Below are positions 24,560 through 40,292 of a DNA stretch of 64,000 bases, in pieces. Both the position numbers and the translations under genes were made by a program. The notes below the pieces were generated by a model. It was given only the letters and a program-made list of their open reading frames with translations. It made no database searches and had not been told where the DNA came from. The DNA comes from a virus (lineage: Duplodnaviria; Caudoviricetes): IMG/VR virus record IMGVR_UViG_2562617096_000005; one strand, written 5' to 3'. Every line of letters begins with the position of its first letter. Position 1 is the first letter of the stretch.

Positions 24560-24707
24560 GATAAGCATACTCAACAGAAATCTTTGGAACGTGCACGAAC
24601 TAAGGAAAGTATGATATGGAACGAGTAAAATATGATGCGATGAATGTGGAATGTGCACATGAAACAGACTTTACATTATAGAGATGGTTCAAATCCATTG
24701 CTTATCT
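24560..24707 (+). ncRNA. tRNA-like RNA: acceptor stem and T-arm enclosing about 115 nt of non-tRNA sequence
   Basis: GATAAGC/GCTTATC stem next to a GATGG-TTCAAAT-CCATT T-arm; 18 nt identical to 25455-25472. Confidence 0.55.
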
Positions 24708-24754
24708 CTCTACTATTTGCTTTATGATTTTTTTCAAATAGTAGACTCCTTTCT

Positions 24755-24909: not shown

Positions 24910-25019
24910 GCAATGATAGTTCAGTTGGGAGAACGGCTGGCAAAAACAATGTTGTTAAAAATACATTGTAGACAGCAAAACAAACCAGCAGGTCGCAAGT
25001 TCGACTCTTGCTCATTGCA
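24910..25019 (+). ncRNA. tRNA-like RNA 1: anticodon loop replaced by a 44-nt hairpin+ACAGCAA module
   Basis: Acceptor GCAATGA/TCATTGC, D-arm GTTC/GAAC, stem GCTGG/CCAGC, T-arm GCAAG-TTCGACT-CTTGC; insert 24941-24984. Confidence 0.85.
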
Positions 25020-25164: not shown

Positions 25165-25392
25165 TTCCTTGAGCTATAACTTTAAAATTTTGAAATATAT
25201 TTTCAAACATATAAATCACTTCCAAATAAATTTACTCAAGGACATGCCCCAATCGTAAAAGGAAACAATATTTCTAATTCGTAGCACTCTAAGTAGAGGT
25301 AAAGAGAATAGGGTAAAACTGCATTGTGAAATGCAGAAGTTCATAAGAGAACTGCAATAAAGTAACGATTTATTGTGAATGAAAAATTCAAA

Positions 25393-25491
25393 TCAGTTAC
25401 ATACAGCAAAATATAAAACAAATGGTTAAAGAAAGTATTATGACAAAATATTTCGAGATGGTTCAAATCCATCACAATTAAATGTAGCTGA
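25393..25491 (+). ncRNA. tRNA-like RNA 2: helix+ACAGCAA module replaces the acceptor stem (Y-RNA-like topology)
   Basis: TCAGTTACAT/ATGTAGCTGA closing helix, ACAGCAA 25403-25409, D-loop remnant, anticodon arm with ATGACAA loop (GAC), T-arm GATGG-TTCAAAT-CCATC. Confidence 0.75.
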
Positions 25492-25503
25492 GAAAATTTA
25501 ATA

Positions 25504-25632
25504 TGCAGGACATAGCTCAATTGGCTAGAGCACGTAAACTTTGTAGTATTGTTATAAATATGTTACATACAGCAATTATTTCTAATGCGCTTTTAACGCC
25601 GTGGTTATCGGTTCGAGTCCGGTTGTCCTGCA
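25504..25632 (+). ncRNA. tRNA-like RNA 3: tRNA-Lys(TTT) body with a 52-nt insert in the anticodon-stem 5' strand
   Basis: CG[25535-25586]GCG-CTTTTAA-CGCCG; insert holds a TGTAG...GTTACA hairpin and TACAGCAA. Confidence 0.85.
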
Positions 25633-25637
25633 AAATA

Positions 25638-25765
25638 TGCGGAGAATAGCTCAGATGGATAGAGCACTGTTAAAATTGTAGCGATGTAAAATATTCGTTA
25701 CATGCAGCAACATACATATTGCTTAGGGAGCCAGATGTCGCAGGTTCGAGTCTTGCTTCTCCGCA
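25638..25765 (+). ncRNA. tRNA-like RNA 4: tRNA-Pro(AGG) body with a 51-nt insert in the anticodon-stem 5' strand
   Basis: CTG[25670-25720]GC-TTAGGGA-GCCAG; insert holds a TGTAGCGA/TCGTTACA hairpin and TGCAGCAA. Confidence 0.85.
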
Positions 25766-25768
25766 CAA

Positions 25769-25842
25769 CAGAATATGAGAGTAATGGGTAACTCGGTTAG
25801 TGTTGGAAGCTTTCGTTCTAGGTTCGAGTCCTAGTGTTCTGA
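25769..25842 (+). tRNA. Degenerate tRNA (possible Pro TGG pseudo-tRNA)
   Basis: Acceptor CAGAATA/TGTTCTG and perfect T-arm CTAGG-TTCGAGT-CCTAG; anticodon stem only 3 bp. Confidence 0.55.
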
Positions 25843-25882: not shown

Positions 25883-27502
25883 ATGCAAAACAATTTTATA
25901 AAAGATTTTGTAGCAGATGGCGAATTATATTTGAAACCAAAAGGATTAAATTTTGCAGAAGCTGTAAAAGAAACACTAAATGAATTGCCATATAATGTGT
26001 CCATAAGTGAAAACGGTGCAATTGGATATAAGTCTTCAGGTCATGTTTTGGTAGATATTAACTATATGACAAGTTCGCTACGAAAGAAAACAGACAAAGA
26101 ATTAATCAACTTGTTCCAAGCTGCTTATTATGAAAACCCAATGTATGCATGGAAATGGCTATTCTTCTTACGTGATATTAGAGGTGGGATGGGTGAAAGA
26201 GATACTTTTCACAGAATTATCAAGTATATGGCTGACTTTAGACCACATGAGATGACACTATTTATTCCATATATAGCAGAATATGGACGATATGATGATA
26301 CATGGGTATTGCTTGATACACAACTTAACAGTATAGTAATTAAAATGATAAACGCACAGCTTCAAGAAGATATTAAAAATTATACTGAAGATAAACCAAT
26401 ATCATTGCTTGCGAAGTGGCTACCAAAACGTAATGCAGAAAGTCATATATCAAGACATTATGCAAGACTTATTATTGAAGGGTTAGAACTCGATGATAAG
26501 ACATACAATCGTATGTTGGTGAAATTGCGTAAGAAACTCAATTTGGTAGAAACTTTTATGTGTGCAAATCAATGGTCAGCAATTGACTACAATTCAGTAC
26601 CTTCTAAAGCAAATCTATTATATCGAAACGCTTTTCTTAAACACGATCCAGAAAGAAGACAACAGTATCTTGAAGATTTGGCTAACGGAAAAGAAGGAGT
26701 AAAAATCAATGCTTCTACTAACTTTCCTCACGATATTGTGCATCAGTATGTTACTGTAGATGGATATGGTTGGAGTTATAAATTAAAAAAATATGATGAG
26801 ACATTAGAACAACTTTGGAAAAATCAAAAAGATACTATTCAGTCAGCAGAAAATATTATGGTTATTCAAGATGGTTCTGGAAGTATGTATCAACCAATAG
26901 ATAGAAATTCTTCAGTGCAAGCAGAAGAAGTTGCAACAGCACTTTCTATTTACTTTGCTGAGAGATGTTCTGGTCAATTCAATAATAAGTTTATGACATT
27001 TGGAAATAGACCAAGGTTTGTTGATATTAGCAACTGTCAAAATCTTAAAGAAAAAATTCAGATTACTTTAAAAAATACAGATTGCAGTAATACGAATATT
27101 GAAAGAGTATTCCAGTTATTATTAGACACGGCTGTAAAAAACAACATGAAACAATCTGATTTGCCAAACACGCTATTGATGATTTCGGATATGGAATTTG
27201 ACTGTATGACTTCAGGAAGAACAGATAAAGCAATGTTTGATGAATTTGCTAAAGAATATGAACGATACGGATATAAATTACCAAGACTGGTGTTTTGGAA
27301 TATTTGTTCAAGAACAGGAACAATCCCTGTTAGAGAAAATGCGAATGGAGTAGCACTTGTATCAGGATATTCTGTAAACATAATGAATATGGTATTAAGT
27401 AATGAATTAGACCCGTACAAATGCCTATTAAAACAGCTTAATACAGAAAGGTATCAGATTATTGAAGATAGATTTAAAGAACTGGAGGGAAAAAGCAAAT
27501 GA
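25883..27502 (+). CDS. DUF2828-family protein (Ro60/TROVE-like helical domain plus vWA)
   Basis: LRDIRGGMGER, YGRYDD, SLLAKWLP, IDYNSVPS...AFLKHD, MIDAS DGSGS, ISDMEFD, VFWN. Confidence 0.8.
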   Translation: MQNNFIKDFVADGELYLKPKGLNFAEAVKETLNELPYNVSISENGAIGYKSSGHVLVDINYMTSSLRKKTDKELINLFQAAYYENPMYAWKWLFFLRDIRGGMGERDTFHRIIKYMADFRPHEMTLFIPYIAEYGRYDDTWVLLDTQLNSIVIKMINAQLQEDIKNYTEDKPISLLAKWLPKRNAESHISRHYARLIIEGLELDDKTYNRMLVKLRKKLNLVETFMCANQWSAIDYNSVPSKANLLYRNAFLKHDPERRQQYLEDLANGKEGVKINASTNFPHDIVHQYVTVDGYGWSYKLKKYDETLEQLWKNQKDTIQSAENIMVIQDGSGSMYQPIDRNSSVQAEEVATALSIYFAERCSGQFNNKFMTFGNRPRFVDISNCQNLKEKIQITLKNTDCSNTNIERVFQLLLDTAVKNNMKQSDLPNTLLMISDMEFDCMTSGRTDKAMFDEFAKEYERYGYKLPRLVFWNICSRTGTIPVRENANGVALVSGYSVNIMNMVLSNELDPYKCLLKQLNTERYQIIEDRFKELEGKSK

Positions 27503-30117
27503 ATTTGAATGGTTTAAATGACCAGCAAGTAGAAAAAAGCAGACAAAAATATGGTAGCAATAAGCTGCCAGAACCAAAGCAAAAGACGTGGTTTAATTTT
27601 TTTACAGACGGATTAAAGGATAAAATCACAATTATTCTAATCATGATGGCTGGAGTTTTCTTTGCTCTTGCATTTCTAGGAGTAGAAAGTTTTAGTGAGC
27701 CTGTTATTATTTTAGCAGTGTTAGCAATTGTGAGTGGAATTAATGTTAGAACAAATCTATCAATACAGAAATCAAATAATAGTCTAAGAGCAAAAACGGC
27801 GGTTAGATATTGTAATGTAATTAGAAATGGTTCTGTTGTAAAAATCAATAAAGATGATATTGTAGTTGGCGATATTATATGTCTTGAAATGGGACAGGAA
27901 ATCTTTGCAGATGGTTACATTGTTGAAGGTGAAATTGCTGTAAGTAACGCTGCAATTAATGGTGAAACAAAAGAATGTAAAAAACATTACATTTCAGGAT
28001 TTAAATATCCAGAAGAAATAACTACAGACCATTATACAGATGAAACGTGCGTATTTGCCGGAACAACTGTTATGTCTGGTGAAGCAAAAATGTTAGTACA
28101 GACAGTTGGTATTAACACTGTCAATGGAGACACACTGGTAAAAATGCAAACATTAGAGCCTACTAAAACTGCTTTAGATATTGCATTAGATAAGTTAGCT
28201 GATTTTATTTCTAAATGGGGAACAGTGGCAGCCTTTGGAGGATTTTTAATCGCAACAGCAACAGGTATCTTAGAAGTTGGATTTAGAGAATACTTTTCAG
28301 GAGATGTGTTACAGATAATAAGAACAATCGCTGAAAACATTTCAGTAGCCCTGACAATTATTGTAGCTGCTGTACCAGAAGGATTACCAATGATTGTAAA
28401 ATTTGTTACTAAAATGAATGTTAAGACAATGGAAAAGGCAAATATTCTTACAAAAAATCCTTCAAAGATACCAGAATTGGCTTATGTGAATTACGTATGT
28501 ACAGATAAAACAGGAACATTGACAACAGGTGTTATGACACCAAAAGAAATTATTACTGGTGACATGAAATCTCAAAAAATAAATAAAGATAATCTACCAG
28601 AAATTCTTAAAGAAAATATAGCTTTAACAAGCGGAAGCTTATTTGATGAAAAAGGAAAAATTACTGGTGGCAATTCAATAGATAGAGCAATGCTTAGTCT
28701 TCTTAATCAATCTGAATTCAATTCTATTTTGACTCAAAACCCAAAATCTAAAAAACAGCCTTTCAATAGTCAATTTAAGTATTCAGCGTTTTCTACAAGC
28801 TGTGAGTTTGGAGATACTTCCTATTATAAGGGTGCTCCTGAAAAGATTTTATCCAATTGTAAATACAGACTAGAAAATGGGAAAATTGTCGAAATGACAG
28901 ATGAGGATAGAATAAATATCTTGAGTGAAATCTATGACCTTACCACGAAAGCAATGAGATGTATTGCATTTGCATACAATATGGAAGCTTTAGAGGAAAA
29001 TGTAATACCAGAAGATTTAGTATTCACAGCAGTAATTGGAGTACAAGATCCAGTTCGTAAAGAAGTTCCTGATGCTGTTAAGACAGCAAAAGAGGCTGGA
29101 ATTACAGTAGTAGAAATTACAGGAGACTGTATTGAAACAGCAGTTGCAGTAGCTCAAGAAGCTGGTATTTATGAAAAAGGTGATATGGCTTTAACTGATG
29201 CAGAGTTTTCTGGAATGACAGATGAAGAAATTAAAGACATTATTCCACGTTTAAGAGTTATTGCTAGATGTTCTCCTACAACAAAATTGAGACTTATTAC
29301 ATTAGCTCAGGAGCTTGGATATTCCACAGCAATGACAGGTGACGGTACAAATGATGCACCAGCATTAACAAAATCTGACGTTGGTTTCGCCATGAATAGT
29401 GGCACTGATGTGGCAAAAGAAGCTGGTGATATTATCCTTGTAGACGATAACTTTGCTTCTATTGTAAAAGGAGTAAAACTTGGAAGAACATTTATGCACA
29501 ATATTCTTATGTTCTTGAATTTCCAGTTGCCAATCAATTATTCACTTCTTGCTATGAACTTCTTATATCCAGTCTTTTTAACAGGCTCTTTCTTAACATC
29601 AGCTCTTATTCTTATTATCAACATTATTATGGACTCTTTGAACTCCTTATCATTTGGTGGTGAACCTCCAAAAGATGAATATATGAAAGAACAACCTTTA
29701 AAGAAAGGTGAAGGATTATTTGTAAATGGAAGTAAAAAACATATTGCTATTAACGCATGTATCTTCTCTTTAGCGTTTGGTTTAATGATTTTTAGTCCAA
29801 TTAAGCATTTATTTGCAACTGAAGCCGCTGGATTATCAGCGAGATTTGCTTTACTTTGCTTTATGGCGGTATTAAATGGCTTTACTCTTAGAACAGATAG
29901 TAGAAACCTGTTTAAAGGATTAAGCAAGAATAAATTATTCTATCGAATTGCTATTGGGATTTTCGTAGGAACTATTGCTCTTGTACAGTTTGGGGGAAGC
30001 GTATTACATACAGCTTCATTGAACTTAACTCAGTGGTTAGCAGTAACAGCATTATCCACAATCGTTCTGTTAGCAGATTTTATTAGAAAAACAATGAAGA
30101 AAAGGAGAAATAAATAA
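27499..30117 (+). CDS. P-type ATPase, Ca2+-transporting PMCA-like (P2)
   Basis: NGET, VAAVPEGLP, DKTGTLT, KGAPE, TGDGTNDAPAL, NIIMD; multiple TM helices; ATGA overlap with the DUF2828 gene. Confidence 0.92.
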   Translation: MNLNGLNDQQVEKSRQKYGSNKLPEPKQKTWFNFFTDGLKDKITIILIMMAGVFFALAFLGVESFSEPVIILAVLAIVSGINVRTNLSIQKSNNSLRAKTAVRYCNVIRNGSVVKINKDDIVVGDIICLEMGQEIFADGYIVEGEIAVSNAAINGETKECKKHYISGFKYPEEITTDHYTDETCVFAGTTVMSGEAKMLVQTVGINTVNGDTLVKMQTLEPTKTALDIALDKLADFISKWGTVAAFGGFLIATATGILEVGFREYFSGDVLQIIRTIAENISVALTIIVAAVPEGLPMIVKFVTKMNVKTMEKANILTKNPSKIPELAYVNYVCTDKTGTLTTGVMTPKEIITGDMKSQKINKDNLPEILKENIALTSGSLFDEKGKITGGNSIDRAMLSLLNQSEFNSILTQNPKSKKQPFNSQFKYSAFSTSCEFGDTSYYKGAPEKILSNCKYRLENGKIVEMTDEDRINILSEIYDLTTKAMRCIAFAYNMEALEENVIPEDLVFTAVIGVQDPVRKEVPDAVKTAKEAGITVVEITGDCIETAVAVAQEAGIYEKGDMALTDAEFSGMTDEEIKDIIPRLRVIARCSPTTKLRLITLAQELGYSTAMTGDGTNDAPALTKSDVGFAMNSGTDVAKEAGDIILVDDNFASIVKGVKLGRTFMHNILMFLNFQLPINYSLLAMNFLYPVFLTGSFLTSALILIINIIMDSLNSLSFGGEPPKDEYMKEQPLKKGEGLFVNGSKKHIAINACIFSLAFGLMIFSPIKHLFATEAAGLSARFALLCFMAVLNGFTLRTDSRNLFKGLSKNKLFYRIAIGIFVGTIALVQFGGSVLHTASLNLTQWLAVTALSTIVLLADFIRKTMKKRRNK

Positions 30118-30863
30118 TGGGATTTTTCAGTTTTTTAAATGGAAATAAAAATGAAACTGAGTCTGGGCACAATAGTGCACCAGCTCAGGAAACTAAAAAA
30201 GTATGTATTGATATGTCAAAAGAGAATTTGAATAAAGTTTTAATTAACATGTCAAAAGATAACAAGATTGATATGACAAAACATACGGCAAGAGTTGCAG
30301 TTGCAATGGATTATAGTGGAAGTATGAGCGATGAATTTAGAGAAGGAAAAGTACAGGATGTAATTACAAGACTTCTTCCTATTGCCTTGAGGTTTGATGA
30401 TAATAAAGAACTGGAATGTTGGCTATTTTCAAATGGAGAAGAAAGACTTGAAGTTATTACTGAAAAGAATTATGAAAACTATGTAGATAAAGTAATGTTG
30501 AAAGCACGTATGGGCATGGGAGGTACGGAATATGCACCTGTATTAACAAGTATGGTTCATCACTATAAAGATATTGAGCCTAGCACAATTCCTGCATTTA
30601 TCATGTTTATTACAGATGGAGATAACTGGGATAAAGAAAAAACAAATGACATTATCAGGGAATTATCCGCATACAACATATTTGTCCAGTTTGTAGGAAT
30701 TGGAAATGATAATTTTAAATATCTGAAATCTTTGGACGACATGAAAGGCAGAGAGAATGATAATACAGGGTTTATCTCTGTAAAAGATATTGCAAAATTA
30801 GATGATGAGCAGCTATATACAGAGCTTTTGAGACAATATAAAGATTGGTTAGCGAATAAATAG
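30117..30863 (+). CDS. vWA domain protein (Ter-associated, TerF-vWA-like)
   Basis: DYSGSM MIDAS, GGTEY, FITDG, FVQFVGIG. Confidence 0.85.
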   Translation: MGFFSFLNGNKNETESGHNSAPAQETKKVCIDMSKENLNKVLINMSKDNKIDMTKHTARVAVAMDYSGSMSDEFREGKVQDVITRLLPIALRFDDNKELECWLFSNGEERLEVITEKNYENYVDKVMLKARMGMGGTEYAPVLTSMVHHYKDIEPSTIPAFIMFITDGDNWDKEKTNDIIRELSAYNIFVQFVGIGNDNFKYLKSLDDMKGRENDNTGFISVKDIAKLDDEQLYTELLRQYKDWLANK

Positions 30864-30875
30864 GAGGAAGAAAAA

Positions 30876-31517
30876 ATGCCAGTAATTGATATGAGTAAAA
30901 ATCAAAAAATTAACATGACAAAAGAAGATGGAAGCAACATTAAAAATATTTTCATTGGTGTGCGTTGGGATATGAATAGATTTTCCGGCGAAGGAGATAT
31001 TGATTTTGATATACATGGGTTCTTAACAAACAGCGATAAAAAAGTTCAATATCCTTCAGATATCGTGAATTTTAGTACATACGGAGATGGAAAAAATTAT
31101 CCGTGGGTTGAATACTCTGGAGATAACAGAACAGGCGATGACTCACAGGGTATTGAATTTAATGGGAGACATTTTGATGAGTATTTTATTGTTCACGCTG
31201 ATAAGTTTCCAGCAAACAAAACAGACTTTACAATTTGCTTAACAATTTTCAGAGCAATTCAACGATTGCAGAATTTTGGCATGGTAAATAATGCAATGGT
31301 TACAGTATATGACTATGACAATCCGTCAGGTTTTGAAGCAAACTTTGATTTATCAGAAGATGAAAAGTTTGAAAAATTAAATGCTGTGGAGCTTGGAAGA
31401 TTATACAAGCATAACGGTGGATTTAAATTTCAGGCAATTGGTTCTGGTTATACAGGCGGTATGGTTGAATTATTTAAAACATTTGATTTAGACATTGATG
31501 AAGGTAGGGATGCTTAA
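30876..31517 (+). CDS. terD: TerD/TerZ family stress protein
   Basis: GVRWD, DFD, SGDNRTGD, ELGRLYKHNGGFKFQAIG. Confidence 0.85.
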   Translation: MPVIDMSKNQKINMTKEDGSNIKNIFIGVRWDMNRFSGEGDIDFDIHGFLTNSDKKVQYPSDIVNFSTYGDGKNYPWVEYSGDNRTGDDSQGIEFNGRHFDEYFIVHADKFPANKTDFTICLTIFRAIQRLQNFGMVNNAMVTVYDYDNPSGFEANFDLSEDEKFEKLNAVELGRLYKHNGGFKFQAIGSGYTGGMVELFKTFDLDIDEGRDA

Positions 31518-32260
31518 TGACTTTCGCAACGGTATTACTTTTATTAACTGTTGGTATTGTTGGAGGAATTCTTTTGTTTACAAAAATAGGCAAAAGAATT
31601 CGCCTTAGAGCAACAGGAACAATCAATGAAAAATTAAGTGAAGATGCATCTACTCCTGAAGGTGCAAAAGCATATTTTAATGCTGCTATTGAAAAGAAAG
31701 AAGAAGATTATTCTAAAGCAAGTGCTAACTATAGTCAAATTCTTGGAAAATTATCTGCATTTGAAAAAGATTTAAGAACACTCCAAAAAGATGAAATGAA
31801 AGTTAATATGGATATTGACTCTTGCGTATCTCGTGGTGATGATGAAGGGGCTAAAACATATTTGAAAATGCAGCAAGAAATTACAGATAAGATGGAAGTT
31901 CTCAAAGAAGGTATTAAGGATTTGAAAGAGAACGAAAGGTTGCAGAAAGAGACAGTTGATAAGCTCTATGATGATTTGGCACAGTTAAAAGCTGAAAAAG
32001 AAAAAACCGTATTCACTTTGGAAACAGTAGAAGCTACAAAATCTTTGAAAGCTGATACCACAGTGTCTTCAAATGAAGAAGATAAAATGTTAGAAAAAGT
32101 CAGAGATGGAGTCAGAAAAGCAAGAGAAGAGTCTGAAGGAAACAGAATAGCTTATGAAAATTCTGCTAGCGTGCAGAAAAAACGTCTGGATAAAAAAATG
32201 AAAGACGAAGAAATCAATAAGAAGTTAGCTGAACTGAAAGCAAAGAAAGGAATGAAATAA
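31517..32260 (+). CDS. Membrane-anchored PspA/IM30-like coiled-coil protein
   Basis: N-terminal TM helix, long coiled coil, C-terminal DEEINKKLAELKAK. Confidence 0.6.
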   Translation: MTFATVLLLLTVGIVGGILLFTKIGKRIRLRATGTINEKLSEDASTPEGAKAYFNAAIEKKEEDYSKASANYSQILGKLSAFEKDLRTLQKDEMKVNMDIDSCVSRGDDEGAKTYLKMQQEITDKMEVLKEGIKDLKENERLQKETVDKLYDDLAQLKAEKEKTVFTLETVEATKSLKADTTVSSNEEDKMLEKVRDGVRKAREESEGNRIAYENSASVQKKRLDKKMKDEEINKKLAELKAKKGMK

Positions 32261-32261
32261 T

Positions 32262-32398
32262 ATGTGGGTTCTATTTCTTTTAGCGGTTTTAGGATATGCA
32301 GTGTTGGGATTGATAATTGTATGGATTGGAAATAAAGTTATCAATTCAATCAAAAAAGATGACAAAAAGATAGAAAAAGAATTGGAGGAAGACCATAA
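32262..32398 (+). CDS. Small membrane protein
   Basis: MWVLFLLAVLGYAVLGLIIVW..., single TM segment. Confidence 0.55.
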
Positions 32399-32401
32399 GC
32401 C

Positions 32402-33292
32402 ATGAAGAAAAAAGTTATAGCTAGTATTGTTTTAGTAGTTGCATTGGCAGGCGGAGTTTTTACAGTGAGCCAGATGGAAAAAATTCCAACAGGAAGAGTA
32501 GGAGTTCAATATTCATTGAATGGTGGAGTAAAAGATGAAGTATTGGACATGGGAGTACATTTTGTTCTTCCTGGTATTCACGTAAAAGAATTTACAATTG
32601 GAAATGAACAGTTAATTCTATCAAAAGATAAGAGAGAAGGAAGTGAAGGGGACGACTCTTTCAAAGTTGCTACTTCTGATGATGCAAGTATTTCTATTAG
32701 TTTTCAGATGTCCTATAGATATATTCCTGAAACAGTAGTAGATACATATAAGAAATTCAAAGGTATGGATGGAGAAGATATTGTTGAACAGCGTGTGAAA
32801 ACAGTGTTAAAATCAAAGATTTCTGAAATTACAACAGATTACAGTATGATGCAGTTATATAGTGGAAATAGATCAGAAATCAACGACAAAATCACTGAAT
32901 ATTTAAATGAAGAATTTGGCGAAGCGTATGGCATTGAAGTTTTGGATGCATCCATTATTGACGTTCATCCTGACGATAAGTTAAAGGCAGCAATTGATGA
33001 TAGAGTGAAAGCTTTGCAGGAAAAACAGCAAGCGGAAGCAGAGCAGGAAAAAATTAAAGTTCAAAAAGAAACCGAAAAAATGCAAGCGGAAGCAGATGCT
33101 CAGATTGCAGTAACACAGGCTCAAGCAAAAGCAGAAAAAATGCGTATCGAAGCTCAGGCGGAGGCAGATGCAAATAATTTGAAATCTAACTCCATTACAC
33201 CAGAACTCATTCAGATGAAAGAGGCAGAGGCAAGATTACAGCATGGTTGGGTAACTGTTCAGGGTGCAAATGCAGTAGTTAAGGAGGAATAA
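32402..33292 (+). CDS. SPFH/Band-7 (prohibitin-like) protein
   Basis: IPTGRVGVQY...G, TSDD, AQAEADAN...SITPELI. Confidence 0.9.
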   Translation: MKKKVIASIVLVVALAGGVFTVSQMEKIPTGRVGVQYSLNGGVKDEVLDMGVHFVLPGIHVKEFTIGNEQLILSKDKREGSEGDDSFKVATSDDASISISFQMSYRYIPETVVDTYKKFKGMDGEDIVEQRVKTVLKSKISEITTDYSMMQLYSGNRSEINDKITEYLNEEFGEAYGIEVLDASIIDVHPDDKLKAAIDDRVKALQEKQQAEAEQEKIKVQKETEKMQAEADAQIAVTQAQAKAEKMRIEAQAEADANNLKSNSITPELIQMKEAEARLQHGWVTVQGANAVVKEE

Positions 33293-33426: not shown

Positions 33427-34401
33427 ATGTTGACAATGAAGAATACGAAACAGGAACTTTTTGATGCATATTCAGAAGCATTGAAAAAAGTAGAGGAAGT
33501 TCAGAAAATGAAAGAAACGCCAGCGGATATGGCTGAAAATAAAAGAAAAGTAGCGGTTGAAGAAAATGCTGCTCAGGCTGTAGAGAGCAATATTTTCAGT
33601 GATGAAATTACTCGACAGTACGAAGACTTAATGGAAACCATTGAAAATAAACAGAAAGAATTGCAAGAATTATATGATATTGAAGTAGAAGCATCTTCTC
33701 TGGCAGCTATTATTAATGCAGCTAAAGAAAAAGACTATCAATTAGAGGAAGAATTTAAAGCTAAAAGAGAAAAACTCATGGCTGAACACAAAGAGCTGAT
33801 TAAAGTATATGAAGCTGAGTTAGATGACTTGATTTCTCAAAAAGACTCCGTGCGAGAAGAAGTAAGAGCTGCGAGAGCAGAAGAAATTGCAAAAGTAAAA
33901 CAGGAACGTCAACGTGAAGAAGAAGAGTATGGATACAATCTGACACGTCAGCGTAAGATTGAAAATGATAAATGGGAAGATGAAAAAGCAGAACGTGAAA
34001 AAGTTTTAAATGCAAAGGAAGAGGCTGCTGACAATATGTTTGTAGAAGCAGAAAGCAAATTAGACGAACTGGAAAGATTGCGTGAAAAAGTTGCAGAAAT
34101 TCCAGAATTGATTGCAAATGCTGAGAAAGAAGCAAAAGAACTTGGTCAGAAAGAAGCTGCAAAAGAGTATGGTTATAAGAAAACCATGTATGAAAAAGAA
34201 AAAGAATATGAAATTGCAAAATTGGAAGACAAAGTTTCTATGCTTGAAGAAAAATTAGAACAGGAAGAAAGTAAAACAACTACATTACAGTCTAAGTTAG
34301 ATGATGCTTATACTAAAATGAACACACTAGCATCTGAAACAGTTAAAGCAAATGGTGCAGTTCGTATTGTATCATCTGGTACAACTCCAGCTTCTAAATA
34401 A
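33427..34401 (+). CDS. Coiled-coil hypothetical protein
   Basis: TMKNTKQELFDAY start; E/K-rich heptads. Confidence 0.7.
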   Translation: MLTMKNTKQELFDAYSEALKKVEEVQKMKETPADMAENKRKVAVEENAAQAVESNIFSDEITRQYEDLMETIENKQKELQELYDIEVEASSLAAIINAAKEKDYQLEEEFKAKREKLMAEHKELIKVYEAELDDLISQKDSVREEVRAARAEEIAKVKQERQREEEEYGYNLTRQRKIENDKWEDEKAEREKVLNAKEEAADNMFVEAESKLDELERLREKVAEIPELIANAEKEAKELGQKEAAKEYGYKKTMYEKEKEYEIAKLEDKVSMLEEKLEQEESKTTTLQSKLDDAYTKMNTLASETVKANGAVRIVSSGTTPASK

Positions 34402-34403
34402 TC

Positions 34404-34568
34404 ATGTCTTACAGAGAAATTCTAAAACAGTCTGAATATTCATTTCTTAGAGAAAACCCACATTTAGGAAATAACATCTGCTTGATTGGTATGGGAGGTT
34501 CTATTGCTTATGGAACTAACCTGCCAACAAGCGATGTGGATATTAACAGGGGTAAACATGCACATTGA
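34404..34568 (+). pseudogene. Truncated RlaP-type (Pol beta) nucleotidyltransferase, N-terminus only
   Basis: FLRENPHLGNNICLIGMGGSIAYGTNLPTSDVDI, then a stop just after the DxD motif. Confidence 0.8.
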
Positions 34569-35727
34569 TAGGATAAAAAATTTCATTTCTATGTATCCAC
34601 AAATATATTCAGATGAAAATACAGATAAAATAAATGAAATCAAAACAAACCGAAAATATATATGGATTTGCAACAAAGGACATAAATTTGAGGCATTGCC
34701 ATCGAACATTATAAAAGATGATGGATTTCATTGTACAGTATGTAGCAATCATACGGTTTTACAGGGGTATAACGACATGGCTACAACACATCCAGAATGT
34801 ATGAAATATCTTTTGAATTTAGAAGATGGATATAAATATACTTTTGGTTCTAATAAAAAAATCTATTGGAAATGTCCTGATTGTGGATATGTAATGTATA
34901 AAGCTCCAAACAAGTTTCTTACCAATAAGAATAAATGCAATAACTGTAATGATTTTATTAGCTACGGTGAAAAATATGTGTCAAAATTTTTAGATTTAAT
35001 GAATACTAATTACACTAAACATGTATCTTTTAAATGGTCTGGGAAAAAATCATACGATTTTTATTTAAAAGATTATATGTGTATTATTGAAGTTCACGGG
35101 AAACAACATTACATAGAGAGCGGTTTTACAGATTTAGGTGGAAGAACATTAAAACAAGAAAAAGCAAATGATGATTTCAAAAAAGATATTGCAAGTAAAA
35201 ATGGAATACAACACTATATAGAAATAAACGCTCGTAATTCAGATGCAGACTATATTAAAAACAGTATTTTACAAAGTAATATCGAAACAGTTTTAAACCA
35301 AAAAATAACATTATCAGATGAACAGTGGGAGCTATGTCATGTGGCTACCTGTAATAATATGTTAAAAACAGTGTGTGATATTTATGAAAATAAAACTAAA
35401 TCAATAAAAGAAATATCCAGAGAAGTGGGATATTGCAGAAATACTATTGTATCTTGGTTAAAAAAGGGAGCTAAAATTGGATGGTGTTCTTATGATTCTA
35501 AAGAAGCGGTTTTAAAGGCAAACAAGGAAACTTCAAAACGTACAGTAAAAACCATGTCAAAGCCGATTTTTCAGATGACGAAAGATTTAAAAATAATTGG
35601 TGAATATCCTAGCATTAACGAAGCACAACGAAAGTTGCATATTTCACATATATGGGATGTCATAGTTGGAAGAAGGCAATCAGCAGGAGGATATATATGG
35701 GGATATCAAGAGCTTGACATGAATTGA
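34558..35727 (+). mobile_element. Free-standing homing-endonuclease-like gene (Zn ribbons, PD-(D/E)XK/Vsr-like nuclease, NUMOD1)
   Basis: WICNKGH and WKCPDCG ribbons; YDFYL...IIEVHGKQHY; GEYPSINEA...AGGYIW. Confidence 0.75.
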
Positions 35728-35769: not shown

Positions 35770-36684
35770 CTGAGTATATTACCCAAATTATTTATGATGA
35801 TTGGTATTCCCGGTAGTGGAAAATCACAAGAAGCAGAGATAATTGCAAAAGAACATAACGCAGTAATTCATGCTTCTGATAGATTGCGAGAAGAGTTGTT
35901 CCGAGATGTAAACCACATGGGAGATAATGGCTTTCTTTTTAATGAACTTCATAAAAGAATTCAGAGAGATTTAAAAGCTGGTAAAAACGTTATATATGAT
36001 GCAACAAATATCAATTCGAAAAAAAGAATATCATTTCTGAAATCTTTAAAAGATATTCCCTGTGAAAAAATTGCAATTCTCATAATGACTCCATACCAGC
36101 AATGTTTGAAAAATAATGCAGAGAGGGAAAGAAGTATTCCTGAAAGTGTTATAGAGAAAATGTATACGAACTTCCAAGTTCCTTATTATTATGAAGGATT
36201 TGATATTATTCAGGTAGTTTTATGGCAAGGGGCAGATTACAAAGAGCCAGAAGAAATTGTTACAAGTTATAATAATTTTAATCAAGAAAATGAGCACCAT
36301 ACTTTAACTCTTGGTCGGCACTTATATCATGCTTTTCATTACATAGGGCAACGATTTGTTAGACATGAAAGAGGATATACTTTCGAACTGTTGTGGGCTT
36401 CATATCTTCACGACATAGGGAAGCCATTTTGCAAGGAGTGCAAAGAAGGAGACAAAAATGCTCACTATTATAACCACATGAACGTAGGTGCATACGACTC
36501 ATTTTTTTATACCTCAAAAGTATTAGACGACTCATTATTAATAGCTTGGTTAATTAACTGGCACATGGAACCCTTCTTTTGGAAGAAAGATGAAAAATTA
36601 AAAGAAAACAGATTAAAACTATGGGGAAAAGATTTATTTGAAATGATAGAAAAATTACATAAAGCGGATTTATACGCTCATTAA
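35770..36684 (+). CDS. Polynucleotide kinase (AAA_33) fused to an HD phosphohydrolase; probable CTG start
   Basis: GIPGSGKS, DATN, HHTLTLGRH, LHDIGKPF, WHM. Confidence 0.85.
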   Translation: MSILPKLFMMIGIPGSGKSQEAEIIAKEHNAVIHASDRLREELFRDVNHMGDNGFLFNELHKRIQRDLKAGKNVIYDATNINSKKRISFLKSLKDIPCEKIAILIMTPYQQCLKNNAERERSIPESVIEKMYTNFQVPYYYEGFDIIQVVLWQGADYKEPEEIVTSYNNFNQENEHHTLTLGRHLYHAFHYIGQRFVRHERGYTFELLWASYLHDIGKPFCKECKEGDKNAHYYNHMNVGAYDSFFYTSKVLDDSLLIAWLINWHMEPFFWKKDEKLKENRLKLWGKDLFEMIEKLHKADLYAH

Positions 36685-36860: not shown

Positions 36861-38147
36861 TTGTATTGTGGATATATTGTACAGCTACAGAACCTGCGTA
36901 AGCACTCAAATGCAGACAGATTGCAATGTGTAAATATTTTTGGAAACAATGTAATTGTAGATATGTCTTATTACGAAGGACAAATAGTAGTCTTCTTTCC
37001 TGTAGATGGAAGATTGAGTGATGAATACGCATTAGCAAATAATTTAGTTAGAAAAAAAGATGAGACAGGTAAAAATATTGGAGGATATTTAGAGCCTGAG
37101 AAAAATAACATCAGAGCATTGAAGCTTAGAGGAGAAAAGTCCGAAGGTTTAGTAATGCCGGTAGAAACATTATTATCATACACAAGTATGGAAACATTAA
37201 AGGTCGGAGATAAAATTACGACATTAAATGGTCATTTGATTTGTGAGAAATATATCCCTAAAAGAAAAACCTTAAAAGGTGGAAACAGTTCAACAAAATC
37301 AAAAAACATTTCTAAGAAGGAAAAATATCCTATCTTTATAGAACATGTTGATACTGAACAGTTGATGTGCAATAAACAAGCATTTAAACCCGGAGATAAA
37401 TGCACAATTACATTAAAGATGCATGGAACAAGCAGTAGAGAAATGTATAGTATCAAACATGAACGATTCAAAAAAAATTTCATAGAAAAATTACTAAAAA
37501 AAGAACCTAGAACTAAAAAAGAATGGACGTATGTTTCAGGTACAAGGAGATGTATATTAGAAGATTTCGATGGAGGATTTTATGGTTCAAATGAATTTAG
37601 AAAACCGTGGCATGATTTCTTTGAAGGAAAATTAGAAAAAGGTGAAACAGTCTACGGAGAGATTGTAGGTTACGTTAATAATCAAACTCCTATTATGGGT
37701 AGTTGTTCTACTTCAAAATTACAGGATAAGGAAGCCAAAAAACTTTATGGAAAAGAAATGGTATTTTCCTATGGTTGTAATCCCGGAGAAAATCAATACT
37801 ATGTTTATCGTATGACGCTGACCAATGAGGACGGATACACTATTGAATATCCTGATTGGCTCATGAGATTAAGATGTGAGCAAATGGGAGTGGATTGTGT
37901 GCCACTTTTTGAAACATTTGAATATTCAACGTGGGAAGATTTAATGGAACGTGTTGAAAAATACTATGATGGAGTAGACCCTGTAGGAAAAACACACATT
38001 CGAGAAGGAGTTGTTGTACGAATTGAAAATAGACCTAAATTCACAGCATTTAAACATAAAAACTTCACTTTTAAATTAGTCAGCGGTATCATCTCAGAAA
38101 ATGCTGACATTGCAAATATGACAGACGATATGGTTGAGGAGCTTTAA
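36861..38147 (+). CDS. ATP-dependent RNA ligase (Rnl2/DRB0094-like) with N-terminal OB domain
   Basis: HSNADRL, LRGEKSEG, KMHGTS (motif I), YGEI, EGVVVR, FKHK. Confidence 0.85.
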   Translation: MYCGYIVQLQNLRKHSNADRLQCVNIFGNNVIVDMSYYEGQIVVFFPVDGRLSDEYALANNLVRKKDETGKNIGGYLEPEKNNIRALKLRGEKSEGLVMPVETLLSYTSMETLKVGDKITTLNGHLICEKYIPKRKTLKGGNSSTKSKNISKKEKYPIFIEHVDTEQLMCNKQAFKPGDKCTITLKMHGTSSREMYSIKHERFKKNFIEKLLKKEPRTKKEWTYVSGTRRCILEDFDGGFYGSNEFRKPWHDFFEGKLEKGETVYGEIVGYVNNQTPIMGSCSTSKLQDKEAKKLYGKEMVFSYGCNPGENQYYVYRMTLTNEDGYTIEYPDWLMRLRCEQMGVDCVPLFETFEYSTWEDLMERVEKYYDGVDPVGKTHIREGVVVRIENRPKFTAFKHKNFTFKLVSGIISENADIANMTDDMVEEL

Positions 38148-38359: not shown

Positions 38360-39283
38360 ATGGAAGAAAATACATTAAAACAAGCAGACGCAAGATTTGA
38401 AGTAATCGGCATTATCAGTGAAATGAACCTGAAAGTAGATACCGATACAGAAGGAAAAGAATATATTGGTGGAACAATCAAAATCAAGACAGATGAAACA
38501 AATACAGTTGTTACTGATGTAAGAGTAAATAAGGTAACAAAGGATGGAAAAGAAAATAAAACCTATGATGGTTGGCTTACACGCATGGCTGAATATGAGT
38601 CTATTGCGGATGAAGGTGTAGATGGAGCAACAATCGTTCACATTAAAAAAGGTCAGTTAAGACCGAGTAAATATATCAACAAAGAAACAGGTAGAGAAGT
38701 TCAGGGAGTTCGCTATTCTGCAAATTTCATGAATAAAGTTGATAGAACTTATACTGAGAATGGTGAATTAGATGTGCCTTTTAAAGCAGAATTTCATGTT
38801 ACTGGATATATTCAGTCTATCATTGACGAATTCGATAAAGAGGAGGAAACAGGAAGATTAATTCTTAATCTACAAGTACCTACTTTTAATTCTATTGAAC
38901 CATTAAAACTTATTGTTCCAGAAAATCTTGCAGATACAGTAAAAGATATATGGGAAATGGGCGCAACAGTAGACGTTGATGGAAAAATTGTCAATCGAGC
39001 TATTGTTACAGAAAAAGTAATTAAAAGAGCTATTGGAGACGATGTTCATGAAACAAGCACCGAATATGTGAATGAACTCTTAATGACAGGTGGTTCTGCT
39101 CCTTATGAAGAAGAATTTGCATACAAAGAAGAAGCTATTCGCAAAGCAATGGCAGACAAGCAGATTGCTCTTGACGAAGCAAAAGCAAAAGTGGAAGAAG
39201 ATAGAAAAAAAGGAAAGAACAATGGTGCTGTACCTAAAAATACTACAGCAACAAGCAGAAAATTACCAACAGCAGGATTTTAA
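38360..39283 (+). CDS. Probable single-stranded DNA-binding protein
   Basis: Beta-rich tandem OB-like sequence ending in F; lies just before the Sak4-like ATPase. Confidence 0.55.
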   Translation: MEENTLKQADARFEVIGIISEMNLKVDTDTEGKEYIGGTIKIKTDETNTVVTDVRVNKVTKDGKENKTYDGWLTRMAEYESIADEGVDGATIVHIKKGQLRPSKYINKETGREVQGVRYSANFMNKVDRTYTENGELDVPFKAEFHVTGYIQSIIDEFDKEEETGRLILNLQVPTFNSIEPLKLIVPENLADTVKDIWEMGATVDVDGKIVNRAIVTEKVIKRAIGDDVHETSTEYVNELLMTGGSAPYEEEFAYKEEAIRKAMADKQIALDEAKAKVEEDRKKGKNNGAVPKNTTATSRKLPTAGF

Positions 39284-39299
39284 TTTAGGAGGATAAACA

Positions 39300-40292
39300 A
39301 TGGCATATTCATTAGATGATTTATTAAACCCACAGGTATCAAAAGTAACACGTTCAACTGATAACTTAATTATTACTACATACGGCGCAAGAGGACAAGG
39401 AAAAACTCCAGTGGCTACAAAAATGGAAAAACCTTTTTACTTTGCATTTGGCAAGTCTGGTTTGAGTGGAATTAACAATGTAGATTTCCAGCCAGTAAAT
39501 TCATGGTCTGATTTTAAGAGTCTTGTTAAACTTTTTTCAAATAAGAAAAACTATGAGCAACTTCATGAAAAATATCACACATTAGTATTGGACGAAATGG
39601 AAATCTTATACAAATACTGTGAACAGTATGTTGCTTCTACAGAAGGTGTAAGAAAGATTAAAGAAGGAAATGGTGGATATGGTCTTTGGGGTGACTTGAA
39701 AGATGAATGGGAAAATGAAATTATGAAAATTATTGGCAGTGGTTTCTGTGTAATGTTTATTCTTCATGCTTGTGCAGATGATACAGGAAAGATTATGCCA
39801 GTTGGAGATTTAAAACGTATGCTTCCTATTATTTTAAATCACTCTGATATCATTGGATATGTAAGAGGAAATGGTTCTGATCCAGAAACAGGAAAGCCTA
39901 TCCACTCTTCTTTAATGCTTTCCGACACTGATGAATATTTTGCAAGAACACGTAACGAATATTTTGTTCCTTATATTGAAGATTATACTGCTGAGAATCT
40001 TGTCAATGCTTATTATGATGCCTTAGATAGACAGGAAAAAGCAGAGGGAACAAGCACTGTGACAAAAGAAGAGGGAGATAAAATGTACGAAAAGCAAAGA
40101 ATTACCTTTGATGAATTAATGGGAAAAGTTGCCGAGTGTATTGAGAAAATGTGTAATGCAAAACGAGATGAAGAAGTTGTTGATATTGTAGAAAAAACTC
40201 TTGGAAAAGGTGGGAAGGTATCTCAGTGTACAGCTAAACAGTATGAAGCTGTTGAAGTTATTTTAAATGATTTAGAAGAAGCGTTGGCTTAA
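39300..40292 (+). CDS. AAA_24 / Sak4-like ATPase
   Basis: GARGQGKT Walker A, LVLDE Walker B, GGYG. Confidence 0.8.
   Translation: MAYSLDDLLNPQVSKVTRSTDNLIITTYGARGQGKTPVATKMEKPFYFAFGKSGLSGINNVDFQPVNSWSDFKSLVKLFSNKKNYEQLHEKYHTLVLDEMEILYKYCEQYVASTEGVRKIKEGNGGYGLWGDLKDEWENEIMKIIGSGFCVMFILHACADDTGKIMPVGDLKRMLPIILNHSDIIGYVRGNGSDPETGKPIHSSLMLSDTDEYFARTRNEYFVPYIEDYTAENLVNAYYDALDRQEKAEGTSTVTKEEGDKMYEKQRITFDELMGKVAECIEKMCNAKRDEEVVDIVEKTLGKGGKVSQCTAKQYEAVEVILNDLEEALA

What the first reader, a model, noticed from the sequence alone, without database searches (positions are those of the whole stretch)
25504..25765. tRNA-Lys(TTT) and tRNA-Pro(AGG) with 51-52-nt inserts at positions 28/29 and 29/30 and extended acceptor stems
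Seen: deleting 25535-25586 or 25670-25720 restores perfect 5-bp anticodon stems with 7-nt loops; both acceptor helices extend to 9 bp (TGC...GCA). Known: bacterial tRNA introns are large self-splicing introns, A34 Pro anticodons are rare in bacteria, and tRNA-Lys(UUU) is the target of PrrC. Alternative inference: these are protein-spliced mini-introns, cut and rejoined by the phage kinase/HD and RNA ligase to give conditionally activated tRNAs.
Basis: partly seen in the sequence, partly recalled or inferred. Interest (0 to 1): 0.7.

Follow-up and report, generated by a model that had tools for sequence, protein, structure and literature searches.

The report
Phage tRNAs carrying a Ro60-type handle
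Two otherwise perfect phage tRNA genes (Lys and Pro) each carry a conserved 51-52-base extra arm in the anticodon stem, and that arm is the "handle" shared by small RNAs that travel with a neighbouring Ro60-like protein, so these are probably tRNA-shaped partner RNAs, or just possibly the first enzyme-spliced bacterial tRNA introns.

Summary
Units 25504-25632 and 25638-25765 are complete tRNA bodies. Removing 25535-25586 or 25670-25720 gives a perfect 5-bp anticodon stem and a 7-nt loop (UUU Lys, AGG Pro). Only 2-3% of shuffled segments allow any such deletion.

Sixteen such interrupted tRNAs from nine related prophage loci keep every helix paired, with many compensatory changes. Their anticodons switch: UUU, GAU, GUU, GCU, GCA, AGG, GGG, GAG.

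The insert is not an anonymous intron. It is a 7-bp helix followed by unpaired NWA-CAGCAA. The same module, with the helix closing the RNA ends, fills the gaps beside the DUF2828 gene in phages of Bacillus, Enterococcus, Listeria, Staphylococcus, E. coli, Mycobacterium and Vibrio. The gene 120 nt downstream (25883-27502) is DUF2828, and its model matches Ro60/TROVE over its full length.

My best reading (about 0.5) is tRNA-shaped Y-RNA-like partner RNAs that keep the handle. Protein-mediated splicing (about 0.3) is neither shown nor excluded: RNA-library contigs show only unspliced forms, and the host has no EndA-type endonuclease.

This scan has noted the CAGCAA/DUF2828 system in at least 169 other genomes. 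I found no paper and no Rfam family covering these RNAs.

The parts
25504..25632 (+). Unit 1: tRNA body (Lys, UUU) with a 9-bp acceptor helix (nt 1 = 25506, nt 73 = 25631), interrupted after nt 28
   Evidence: Sequence. Rfam tRNA 37.3 bits. Unique deletion solution. Conserved in L129-L135, L140 and L142.
25535..25586 (+). Insert 1 (52 nt). Helix H1 is 25543-25549 with 25560-25566, closed by the 10-nt loop 25550-25559. Spacer AUA is 25567-25569 and motif CAGCAA is 25570-25575. An A/U-rich tail follows.
   Evidence: H1 is paired in 112/112 cells, with both-side changes at 6 of 7 positions.
25638..25765 (+). Unit 2: tRNA body (Pro, AGG) with a 9-bp acceptor helix (nt 1 = 25640, nt 73 = 25764), interrupted after nt 29
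   Evidence: Sequence. Rfam tRNA 37.7 bits. Unique deletion solution. The anticodon is GGG in L129-L131.
25670..25720 (+). Insert 2 (51 nt). Helix H1 is 25678-25684 with 25695-25701, closed by the loop 25685-25694. Spacer AUG is 25702-25704 and motif CAGCAA is 25705-25710.
24910..25019 (+). Sister tRNA-like RNA with the same module (H1 24946-24952 with 24963-24969; CAGCAA 24973-24978) in place of the anticodon loop. No deletion restores a canonical loop.
   Evidence: Rfam tRNA 52.3 bits with a 43-nt insertion..
25394..25490 (+). 'Open' version of the module. The strand CAGUUAC, spacer AUA and CAGCAA (25404-25409) sit at the 5' side and pair with GUAGCUG at 25484-25490. This encloses an anticodon-like arm and a T arm, giving a Y-RNA-like topology.
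   Evidence: and alignment A3.
25769..25842 (+). Third unit of the tandem: an uninterrupted tRNA-like gene (UGG loop) with two mismatches in its anticodon stem
   Evidence: Rfam tRNA 36.2 bits. The anticodon differs among relatives.
25883..27502 (+). DUF2828+DUF7788 protein (539 aa), a Ro60/TROVE-like ring with a vWA domain. It is the presumed binder of the helix+CAGCAA handle.
   Evidence: Pfam. phrog_850 'RNA-binding protein'. AlphaFold model with pLDDT 81.7. Best Foldseek matches are Ro60 proteins: 9kop E=5.7e-11, then 1yvp, 2nvo and 9nen.
35794..36684 (+). Polynucleotide-kinase-like P-loop domain plus a weak HD domain (a candidate RNA end-healing enzyme)
   Evidence: Pfam AAA_33, and HD at E=0.001. 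The N-terminus matches the kinase domain of PDB 4gp7 at E=2.6e-10.
36861..38147 (+). ATP-dependent RNA ligase with an N-terminal OB domain
   Evidence: Pfam RNA_ligase + PHA02142. phrog_968 'RNA ligase' at 4.6e-71.

Best explanation
Units 1 and 2 are tRNA-shaped partner RNAs of the phage's Ro60-like protein, a new form of Y RNA.

Anatomy:
- Each unit is a complete tRNA body: acceptor, D, T and anticodon arms, with the tertiary pairs.
- A side arm has been grafted onto the 5' strand of the anticodon stem.
- The arm is a weak A/U basal helix, then an unpaired NWA-CAGCAA bulge, then a 7-bp capped helix. This is the same stem-bulge-stem 'handle' that closes the free-standing small RNAs beside DUF2828 genes in many phages, circularly permuted so that the RNA ends lie at the tRNA acceptor stem.

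How I think it works:
- The RNA is made from the non-coding island upstream of the DUF2828 gene.
- It is trimmed like a tRNA and folds as an L-shaped tRNA with a three-way junction in the anticodon stem.
- The handle docks the Ro60-like ring, so that a genuine anticodon arm (Lys, Pro and others in relatives) is displayed on the protein.
- The likely role is in the conflict over tRNA damage: as bait or sensor for host anticodon-directed nucleases, or as a platform that brings damaged tRNA to the phage's kinase/HD and RNA ligase.

Shown: the anatomy, its conservation and covariation, the identity of the module, the Ro60-like fold of the neighbour, and their co-occurrence across phages.

Inferred: binding of the handle by DUF2828, retention of the handle in the mature RNA, end processing, and the role.
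For: (1) Sixteen interrupted tRNAs from nine loci keep all helices paired: acceptor 112/112 cells, D 64/64, anticodon stem joined across the insert 80/80, T 80/80 and insert helix 112/112. Both-side changes occur at 7/7, 0/4, 4/5, 4/5 and 6/7 positions (alignments).

(2) The insert matches one consensus, a 7/7 helix + 3 nt + CAGCAA + A/U. That consensus is found in 'closed' and 'open' topologies in the island and in relatives. The open form lies in the unannotated gaps directly beside DUF2828 in Bacillus Tsamsa and BcoS-136, Enterococcus VRE9_4, E. coli REP8, Mycobacterium Acquire49, Staphylococcus SEP9, Listeria LP-Mix_6.2 and Vibrio VH7D.

(3) Some open members fold as YrlA-type tRNA mimics: handle, T arm, capped acceptor-like hairpin, D arm.

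(4) The DUF2828 model's best full-length PDB matches are Ro60 proteins. A weak sequence hit to the phage Ro60 structures 9l5y and 9kop agrees.

(5) In the same island the handle sits in a tRNA body that cannot be spliced into a decoder (24910-25019). It also closes an RNA that has no acceptor stem yet keeps a canonical 5-bp/7-nt anticodon-like arm, whose triplet changes among relatives (25394-25490). So handle plus tRNA parts works without decoding.

(6) RNA-library contigs hold the unspliced units. In run X6, 25448-25840 is covered while both flanks are near zero depth.

(7) Ro60 with tRNA-like Y RNAs encoded next to it is established in bacteria and phages (PMC4201824, PMC12135203).
Against: - Every one of the 16 units gives an exact 5-bp stem and a 7-nt loop with U33 and R37 when the insert is removed. 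The loops look like those of real Lys, Asn, Ile, Cys and Pro tRNAs, and anticodons switch without other change. That is what one expects of decoders.
- A 50-nt branch at nt 28-30 should clash with the 30S P site (established structural knowledge, not tested here). If these RNAs decode, the arm must come off.
- Healing and sealing enzymes are encoded in the block.
- No binding data exist for any DUF2828 protein.
- The link between handle and protein rests on gene neighbourhood.
Confidence: 0.5

Rival explanations
1. The inserts are true protein-dependent mini-introns. They are cut out and the nick in the anticodon stem is resealed, by the phage kinase/HD and RNA ligase or by host enzymes, giving functional tRNA-Lys and tRNA-Pro. 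The handle may recruit the machinery.
For: - Exact restoration of a canonical anticodon arm in 16 of 16 units, against 2-3% expected by chance per unit.
- Canonical loop features and anticodon switching.
- In several units the two ends of the insert pair with each other, which brings the two junctions together: 7 bp in L141, 8 bp in L129 unit 2.
- Removal would leave a nick inside a duplex. A kinase/HD and an OB-fold RNA ligase lie 10 kb downstream.
- The spliced unit 2 is 90% identical over 41 nt to an uninterrupted tRNA-Pro of phage Tsamsa.
Against: - No endonuclease candidate was identified, and EndA/Sen (PF01974) is absent from the complete genome.
- The junctions lie at variable distances from the hairpin and share no motif beyond U-rich ends.
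- No spliced joint appears in four runs, though these are contigs and cannot show absence.
- Sister RNAs with the same module are unspliceable.
- Both halves of the stem would also be conserved in a three-way junction, so covariation cannot tell the two readings apart.
- The host already has tRNA-Lys(UUU) x3 and three tRNA-Pro genes.
Confidence: 0.3
2. The real RNA is a permuted YrlA-type Y RNA: the 3' half of unit 1 joined to the 5' half of unit 2, as the Rfam YrlA hit at 25578-25688 suggests.
For: The YrlA model matches at 32.5 bits, E=3.5e-05 on the small region. YrlA-like permuted RNAs do exist in Bacillus phages.
Against: - The score is far below the gathering score of 69.
- The authors of the model warn that tandem tRNAs give exactly this false positive (PMC4201824).
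- Each unit's own acceptor strands pair 9/9, and pair 1:72 covaries within units.
- The hairpin strands pair 7/7 within a unit but 6/7 between units (sequence).
Confidence: 0.04
3. These are tRNA genes disrupted by a small mobile DNA element and are now decaying pseudogenes.
For: The insert is a discrete hairpin-bearing element found in several tRNA bodies.
Against: - No other closed copy exists in the 3.07-Mb genome.
- Units at 76-90% identity, and more distant ones, keep all helices through compensatory changes.
- The inserts always lie after nt 28 or 29 on the same strand.
Confidence: 0.03
4. These are archaeal-type bulge-helix-bulge introns, or miniature self-splicing introns or ribozymes.
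For: Archaeal tRNA introns can lie in the anticodon stem.
Against: - No EndA is present.
- No Rfam intron or ribozyme family matches at E<=10 in the region.
- 51 nt is too short for a group I core.
- I saw no 3-4-3 bulge-helix-bulge by eye.
Confidence: 0.02

Closest known systems
Ro60 (Rsr/TROVE) with tRNA-like Y RNAs: YrlA, Yrn1 and phage Yrl1/Yrl2 (Rfam RF02553; PMC4201824; PMC12135203)
   Same: - A ring-shaped Ro60-fold protein is encoded next to, and on the same strand as, several small RNAs.
- Those RNAs combine a stem-bulge-stem handle with tRNA-like D and T arms.
- Some relatives of the window's RNAs have exactly the YrlA order of arms.
- M. smegmatis YrlA is cut by RNase P and receives CCA, which gives an open acceptor end as here.
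   Different: - The protein is DUF2828, not Pfam TROVE: 11-17% identity to solved Ro60s.
- The bulge motif is NWA-CAGCAA, not GNCGAAN0-1G.
- In units 1 and 2 the handle is a capped side arm in the anticodon stem of a complete tRNA that keeps a canonical anticodon loop. No described Y RNA does this.
- The Rfam YrlA score here is an artefact of tandem tRNAs.
Dictyostelium Class I RNAs (Rfam RF01414; PMC7919456)
   Same: - A short stem whose sequence varies but whose pairing is kept, followed at once by the conserved unpaired motif CCUUACAGCAA (model consensus).
- The free-standing phage modules match this model at 19-23 bits.
- Those matches are the best hits of whole phage records and lie beside DUF2828.
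   Different: - All phage matches fall below the gathering score of 41.5.
- Class I RNAs are ~60-nt eukaryotic cytoplasmic RNAs with no tRNA parts, and their known binder is an RRM protein.
- The window's two units are permuted and do not match the model.
Phage T4 tRNA-Lys repair by Pnkp and Rnl1 after PrrC cleavage, and phage tRNAs that counter anticodon nucleases
   Same: A phage-borne tRNA-Lys(UUU) together with kinase-type end healing and an RNA ligase in one genome block.
   Different: - The T4 tRNAs are uninterrupted.
- T4 repair acts on the anticodon loop, not on a stem insertion.
- No nuclease or cleavage is shown here.
Bacterial tRNA group I introns and archaeal/eukaryal tRNA introns
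   Same: An intervening sequence in the anticodon arm whose removal gives a canonical tRNA.
   Different: - Group I introns are over 200 nt, lie in the loop and match Rfam models.
- Archaeal and eukaryal introns need EndA/Sen and a bulge-helix-bulge.
- Neither condition is met.

Membership tests
tRNA (Rfam RF00005) | Cloverleaf with a 7-bp acceptor, a D arm with G18G19 and a T arm with UUCRA, scoring above the gathering score | tested here: met
   37.3 and 37.7 bits against 29. All arms are paired in 16 homologues.
tRNA (Rfam RF00005) | Contiguous 5-bp anticodon stem with a 7-nt loop in the gene | tested here: not met
   The stem is interrupted by 52 or 51 nt after nt 28 or 29. It becomes canonical only after deletion. 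ARAGORN does not call either unit.
tRNA (Rfam RF00005) | Aminoacylation and decoding | not testable with these tools
   Needs acid-gel northern blots or tRNA-seq.
Y RNA / YrlA (RF02553) | Encoded within 4 kb of, and on the same strand as, a Ro60 orthologue | tested here: met
   The units end 118 nt upstream of the DUF2828 gene. The protein model matches Ro60 structures over its full length.
Y RNA / YrlA (RF02553) | GNCGAAN0-1G motif on the 5' strand of the terminal stem | tested here: not met
   The motif here is NWA-CAGCAA.
Y RNA / YrlA (RF02553) | Covariance-model score at or above the gathering score | tested here: not met
   32.5 bits against 69. The hit spans two tandem tRNAs, which is a known false-positive class.
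Y RNA / YrlA (RF02553) | Bound by the Ro60-type protein | not testable with these tools
   Only gene neighbourhood across phages is available.
Dictyostelium Class I RNA (RF01414) | Terminal stem followed by the CCUUACAGCAA-type motif | tested here: inconclusive
   The motif and its position next to a helix are shared. The window units are permuted and give no hit. Open phage modules score 19-23 bits against 41.5.
Group I intron in a bacterial tRNA | An intron over 200 nt with a P1-P9 core, located in the anticodon loop | tested here: not met
   The inserts are 51-52 nt and lie in the stem. No Rfam intron hit appears at E<=10.
Archaeal/eukaryal enzyme-spliced tRNA intron | A splicing endonuclease of the EndA/Sen family is present | tested here: not met
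   PF01974 finds nothing in the complete 3.07-Mb genome, while the archaeal control genomes do match.
Archaeal/eukaryal enzyme-spliced tRNA intron | Bulge-helix-bulge at the two junctions | tested here: inconclusive
   None was seen by eye in the folds. No dedicated search was run.
Dispersed mobile mini-element (MITE-like) | Multiple copies scattered in the genome | tested here: not met
   The only closed module with the strict motif in the whole genome is unit 1.

The most novel reading that the evidence does not exclude
The inserts are genuine enzyme-removed tRNA introns of a phage, and the intron is itself a Y-RNA handle. It would recruit the Ro60-like ring and trimming nucleases to its own ends. 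A nick-sealing phage RNA ligase, with the kinase/HD if the ends need healing, would then close the anticodon stem. Phage tRNA-Lys and tRNA-Pro would thus be switched on only when the repair proteins are present. This would be the first protein-dependent tRNA splicing outside archaea and eukaryotes, and a first catalytic-pathway role for a Ro60-type particle.
Probability: 0.22. Interest if true: 0.92.

Novelty: new variant of a known kind. Interest (0 to 1): 0.68.

Why it matters
- Ro60 and its Y RNAs are conserved from bacteria to humans, yet what their tRNA-like domains do is unknown. Here the tRNA-like domain is a full tRNA with a working-looking, fast-changing anticodon. That points to the anticodon arm as the business end and ties the particle to conflicts over tRNA damage.
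- It gives the very large DUF2828 family a likely RNA ligand: 710 phage records in one collection, plus homologues in eukaryotes.
- It links that ligand to the unexplained Class I RNAs of social amoebae.
- If the arm is instead excised, it would overturn the rule that bacterial-world tRNA introns are self-splicing.
- Either outcome can be tested with one northern blot and one pull-down in a cultivable lysogen.

Tried and rejected
- ARAGORN finds neither unit.
- blastn of the island against 50,697 phage records matched only its ordinary tRNAs.
- A peptide-pattern scan of viral contigs with the single DUF2828 protein found no relative.
- An exact 14-mer scan of viral contigs gave 119+ matches that looked like chance. 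I did not follow them.
- Forty relatives of the host share only tRNA-Met with the island, so the island is phage-borne.
- Reads: four runs, all contigs, show no joint across either insert. This cannot show that a spliced form is absent. Two of the 'RNA' runs are probably DNA.
- The YrlA hit is rejected as a tandem-tRNA artefact.
- I looked for a promoter inside the insert (TTGTAG...TACATA). The match is poor and I dropped the idea.
- I considered pairing of CAGCAA with the upstream UUGU, as in the RNAfold result. It is not conserved in the distant units, so the motif is taken as unpaired.
- RNase III-type excision was considered and set aside, because the cut would leave stubs rather than a flush nick.
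- The RNA ligase has no sequence relative in the PDB, so its nick-sealing preference remains an inference from its Pfam domains.
- Pfam at E<=1 gives no nuclease domain for the unknown genes 33427-34401, 38360-39283 and 40292-40870.
- Searches for papers on DUF2828, 'Ro-like' phage Y RNAs and the motif string found nothing relevant.

Full report
**1. What is in the sequence.**

The window is part of a large prophage. It carries a DnaB-like helicase, a Pol III alpha-type polymerase, RecD2, a ribonucleotide reductase, an NAD-dependent ligase and integrases. It sits in a complete 3.07-Mb, ~32% G+C bacterial chromosome.

Between the NAD ligase gene (ends 24308) and a 539-aa gene (starts 25883) lies a 1.6-kb non-coding island.
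- ARAGORN calls three ordinary tRNAs there.
- Rfam's tRNA model at relaxed thresholds adds four more: 24910-25019, 25506-25631, 25640-25764 and 25769-25842.

The two units in the finding are exactly as described.
- Deleting 25535-25586 from unit 1 joins CG to GCG and gives CGGCG-CUUUUAA-CGCCG.
- Deleting 25670-25720 from unit 2 joins CUG to GC and gives CUGGC-UUAGGGA-GCCAG.
- Both have U8, G18G19, a UUCGAGU T loop and a 15:48 pair that differs between them in a compensatory way (A:U and G:C).
- Both acceptor helices run on for two more pairs (UGC...GCA).

An exhaustive scan of all single deletions finds one solution per unit. Only 2-3% of shuffles of the same segments allow any solution.

**2. 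The feature is conserved and under selection.**

Close homologues of the downstream protein led to metagenome contigs with the same island.

Both inserts are present at the same sites in all close relatives. I parsed sixteen interrupted tRNAs from nine loci:

| Helix | Cells paired | Positions with changes on both sides |
|---|---|---|
| Acceptor | 112/112 | 7/7 |
| D | 64/64 | 0/4 |
| Anticodon stem joined across the insert | 80/80 | 4/5 |
| T | 80/80 | 4/5 |
| Insert hairpin | 112/112 | 6/7 |

- The partner strands of the anticodon stem and the insert hairpin were chosen by optimisation in each sequence, which biases these two rows towards pairing.
- The insert always follows nt 28 or 29 on the 5' strand.
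- Loops keep U33 and a purine at 37, but the anticodon changes: UUU, GAU, GUU, GCU and GCA in the unit-1 type; AGG, GGG and GAG in the unit-2 type.
- The host genome holds no uninterrupted copy and no other closed module. This is therefore neither a dispersed mobile element nor a decaying pseudogene.

**3. What the insert is.**

The inserts are homologous to each other and to two further elements of the island. Their common plan is a 7-bp helix, three nucleotides (N-W-A), CAGCAA, then A/U-rich sequence. A census shows two topologies.
- In the 'closed' form the helix is a hairpin capped by 3-11 nt. This form sits inside tRNA bodies.
- In the 'open' form the strand before the motif pairs with a strand 30-130 nt downstream, so the helix closes the RNA. 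This is the form at 25394-25490.

In several units the first and last ~7 nt of the insert also pair, so the whole insert is a stem-bulge-stem arm.

**4. The neighbour is Ro60-like, and the handle travels with it.**

The 539-aa protein is DUF2828+DUF7788 and phrog_850 'RNA-binding protein'. An AlphaFold model built from 33 homologues has pLDDT 81.7. Its best PDB matches over the full length are Ro60 proteins:
- Thermus phage phiLo Ro60, 9kop: E=5.7e-11, TM 0.53/0.60.
- Then Xenopus, Deinococcus and human Ro60.

tblastn finds the family in 710 phage records. I opened eight records from seven host genera. In five the gene abuts or sits within the tRNA array, and one more has a single tRNA nearby. 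In all eight, the unannotated gap beside the gene holds one to four open modules with G+C-rich, fully paired helices. Two Bacillus phage members start just after sigma-70-like promoters. They fold as handle, T arm, capped acceptor-like hairpin, D arm, which is the YrlA plan.

The helix test alone has a noticeable false-positive rate in A/T-rich DNA: about a dozen of 54 sites in the window. The argument therefore rests on clustering beside the gene and on the extended motif.

Rfam has no family that reaches threshold. The nearest is RF01414, Dictyostelium Class I RNA, whose consensus is a stem followed by CCUUACAGCAA. Phage open modules score 19-23 bits, and these are the top hits of whole phage records, lying beside DUF2828.

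**5. Intron or permanent arm?**

For splicing:
- The restoration of the anticodon arm is exact.
- The anticodon loops look real.
- The insert's ends pair in some units, bringing the junctions together.
- A polynucleotide-kinase/HD protein and an OB-fold RNA ligase are encoded in the block.
- From established ribosome structures, a 50-nt branch at nt 28-30 should not fit the 30S P site. Decoding would therefore require removal.

Against splicing:
- There is no EndA-type endonuclease in the complete genome, and no nuclease domain among the unknown neighbours.
- The junctions lie at variable distance from the hairpin.
- The sister RNA 24910-25019 carries the module in place of its anticodon loop and has no deletion solution.
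- The open RNA 25394-25490 has no acceptor stem, yet keeps a 5-bp/7-nt anticodon-like arm whose triplet changes among relatives: GAC, UAC, GAA. Canonical, fast-changing anticodon loops are therefore maintained in this system even where decoding is impossible.
- Contigs of two metatranscriptome runs carry the unspliced units. In one run they are covered while the flanks are not. No joint skips an insert. Contigs cannot show that a spliced form is absent.
- Covariation cannot separate the models, because a three-way junction conserves the same pairs.

I weight the retained-handle model at about 0.5 and splicing at about 0.3.

**6. The YrlA hit.**

Rfam's YrlA model matches 25578-25688 at 32.5 bits. 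That stretch is the T arm of unit 1 plus the D arm of unit 2. The model's authors discarded exactly this class of hit as a false positive. Each unit's own acceptor strands pair 9/9, and the hairpin strands pair better within units than between them. The system is Y-RNA-like, but not through this hit.

**7. Relation to earlier notes of this scan.**

The scan's notes list the CAGCAA/DUF2828 pairing in at least 169 other genomes. They include one cyanophage with two tRNAs carrying the module in the anticodon stem.

I used these notes as leads only. The module census, the fold match, the phage survey and the Class I comparison were all redone here.

**8. Verdict.**

The insert's identity as a Ro60-type handle is the main new fact.

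I class it as a new variant of the Ro60/Y-RNA kind: complete tRNAs, anticodon included, fitted with the handle.

Noticed in passing
window 24561-24708: Another tRNA-like RNA. A 7-bp terminal stem (GAUAAGC/GCUUAUC) sits next to a T arm whose 18 nt are identical to 25455-25472, around ~110 nt of unknown structure. It shares short blocks with 25295-25441 (repeats D8, D14, D20).
   Followed up: no
window 25504-25765 and loci L129-L135, L140, L142: G-1:C73 is conserved in both unit types, giving an 8-9-bp acceptor helix. That pair is the hallmark of tRNA-His, and a long acceptor stem disfavours EF-Tu binding. This may bear on whether these RNAs are charged or used in translation.
   Followed up: partly
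window 25769-25842: An uninterrupted tRNA-like gene with two mismatches in its anticodon stem. Its anticodon is UGG here and CGG, AGG or UGU in relatives.
   Followed up: partly
window 27499-33292: The DUF2828 stop overlaps the start of a full P-type cation ATPase. It is followed by vWA-TerF, TerD, a PspA-like gene and an SPFH/Band-7 gene. The same order is kept in all related loci. A Band-7 gene also lies near the Ro-like gene of a mycobacteriophage.
   Followed up: no
L140:1763-2276; L142:3511-3819; L143:3323-3614: In more distant relatives the same non-coding island also holds a GOLLD RNA (159.8 bits, above threshold) and tmRNA genes.
   Followed up: no
L148:2763-2900, L149, L146 (phage records NC_023582.1, MT668624.1, OQ174507.1): The free-standing CAGCAA modules of bacterial phages resemble Dictyostelium Class I RNAs (RF01414 consensus CCUUACAGCAA), and DUF2828 also occurs in eukaryotes. 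This suggests DUF2828 proteins as candidate partners of Class I RNAs.
   Followed up: partly
window 34486-35727 and 45225-50641: An HNH/NUMOD homing-endonuclease-like gene lies between the membrane operon and the kinase. The Pol III alpha-type polymerase appears split into two ORFs (45225-47255 and 49355-50641) with small genes between them.
   Followed up: no
L139:1472-1600 (Bacillus phage vB_BcoS-136): An open-handle RNA that encloses a whole tRNA in normal arm order (D, anticodon, T) but with a non-canonical loop (A33). It looks like an intermediate between the window's units and classical tRNA-like Y RNAs.
   Followed up: partly
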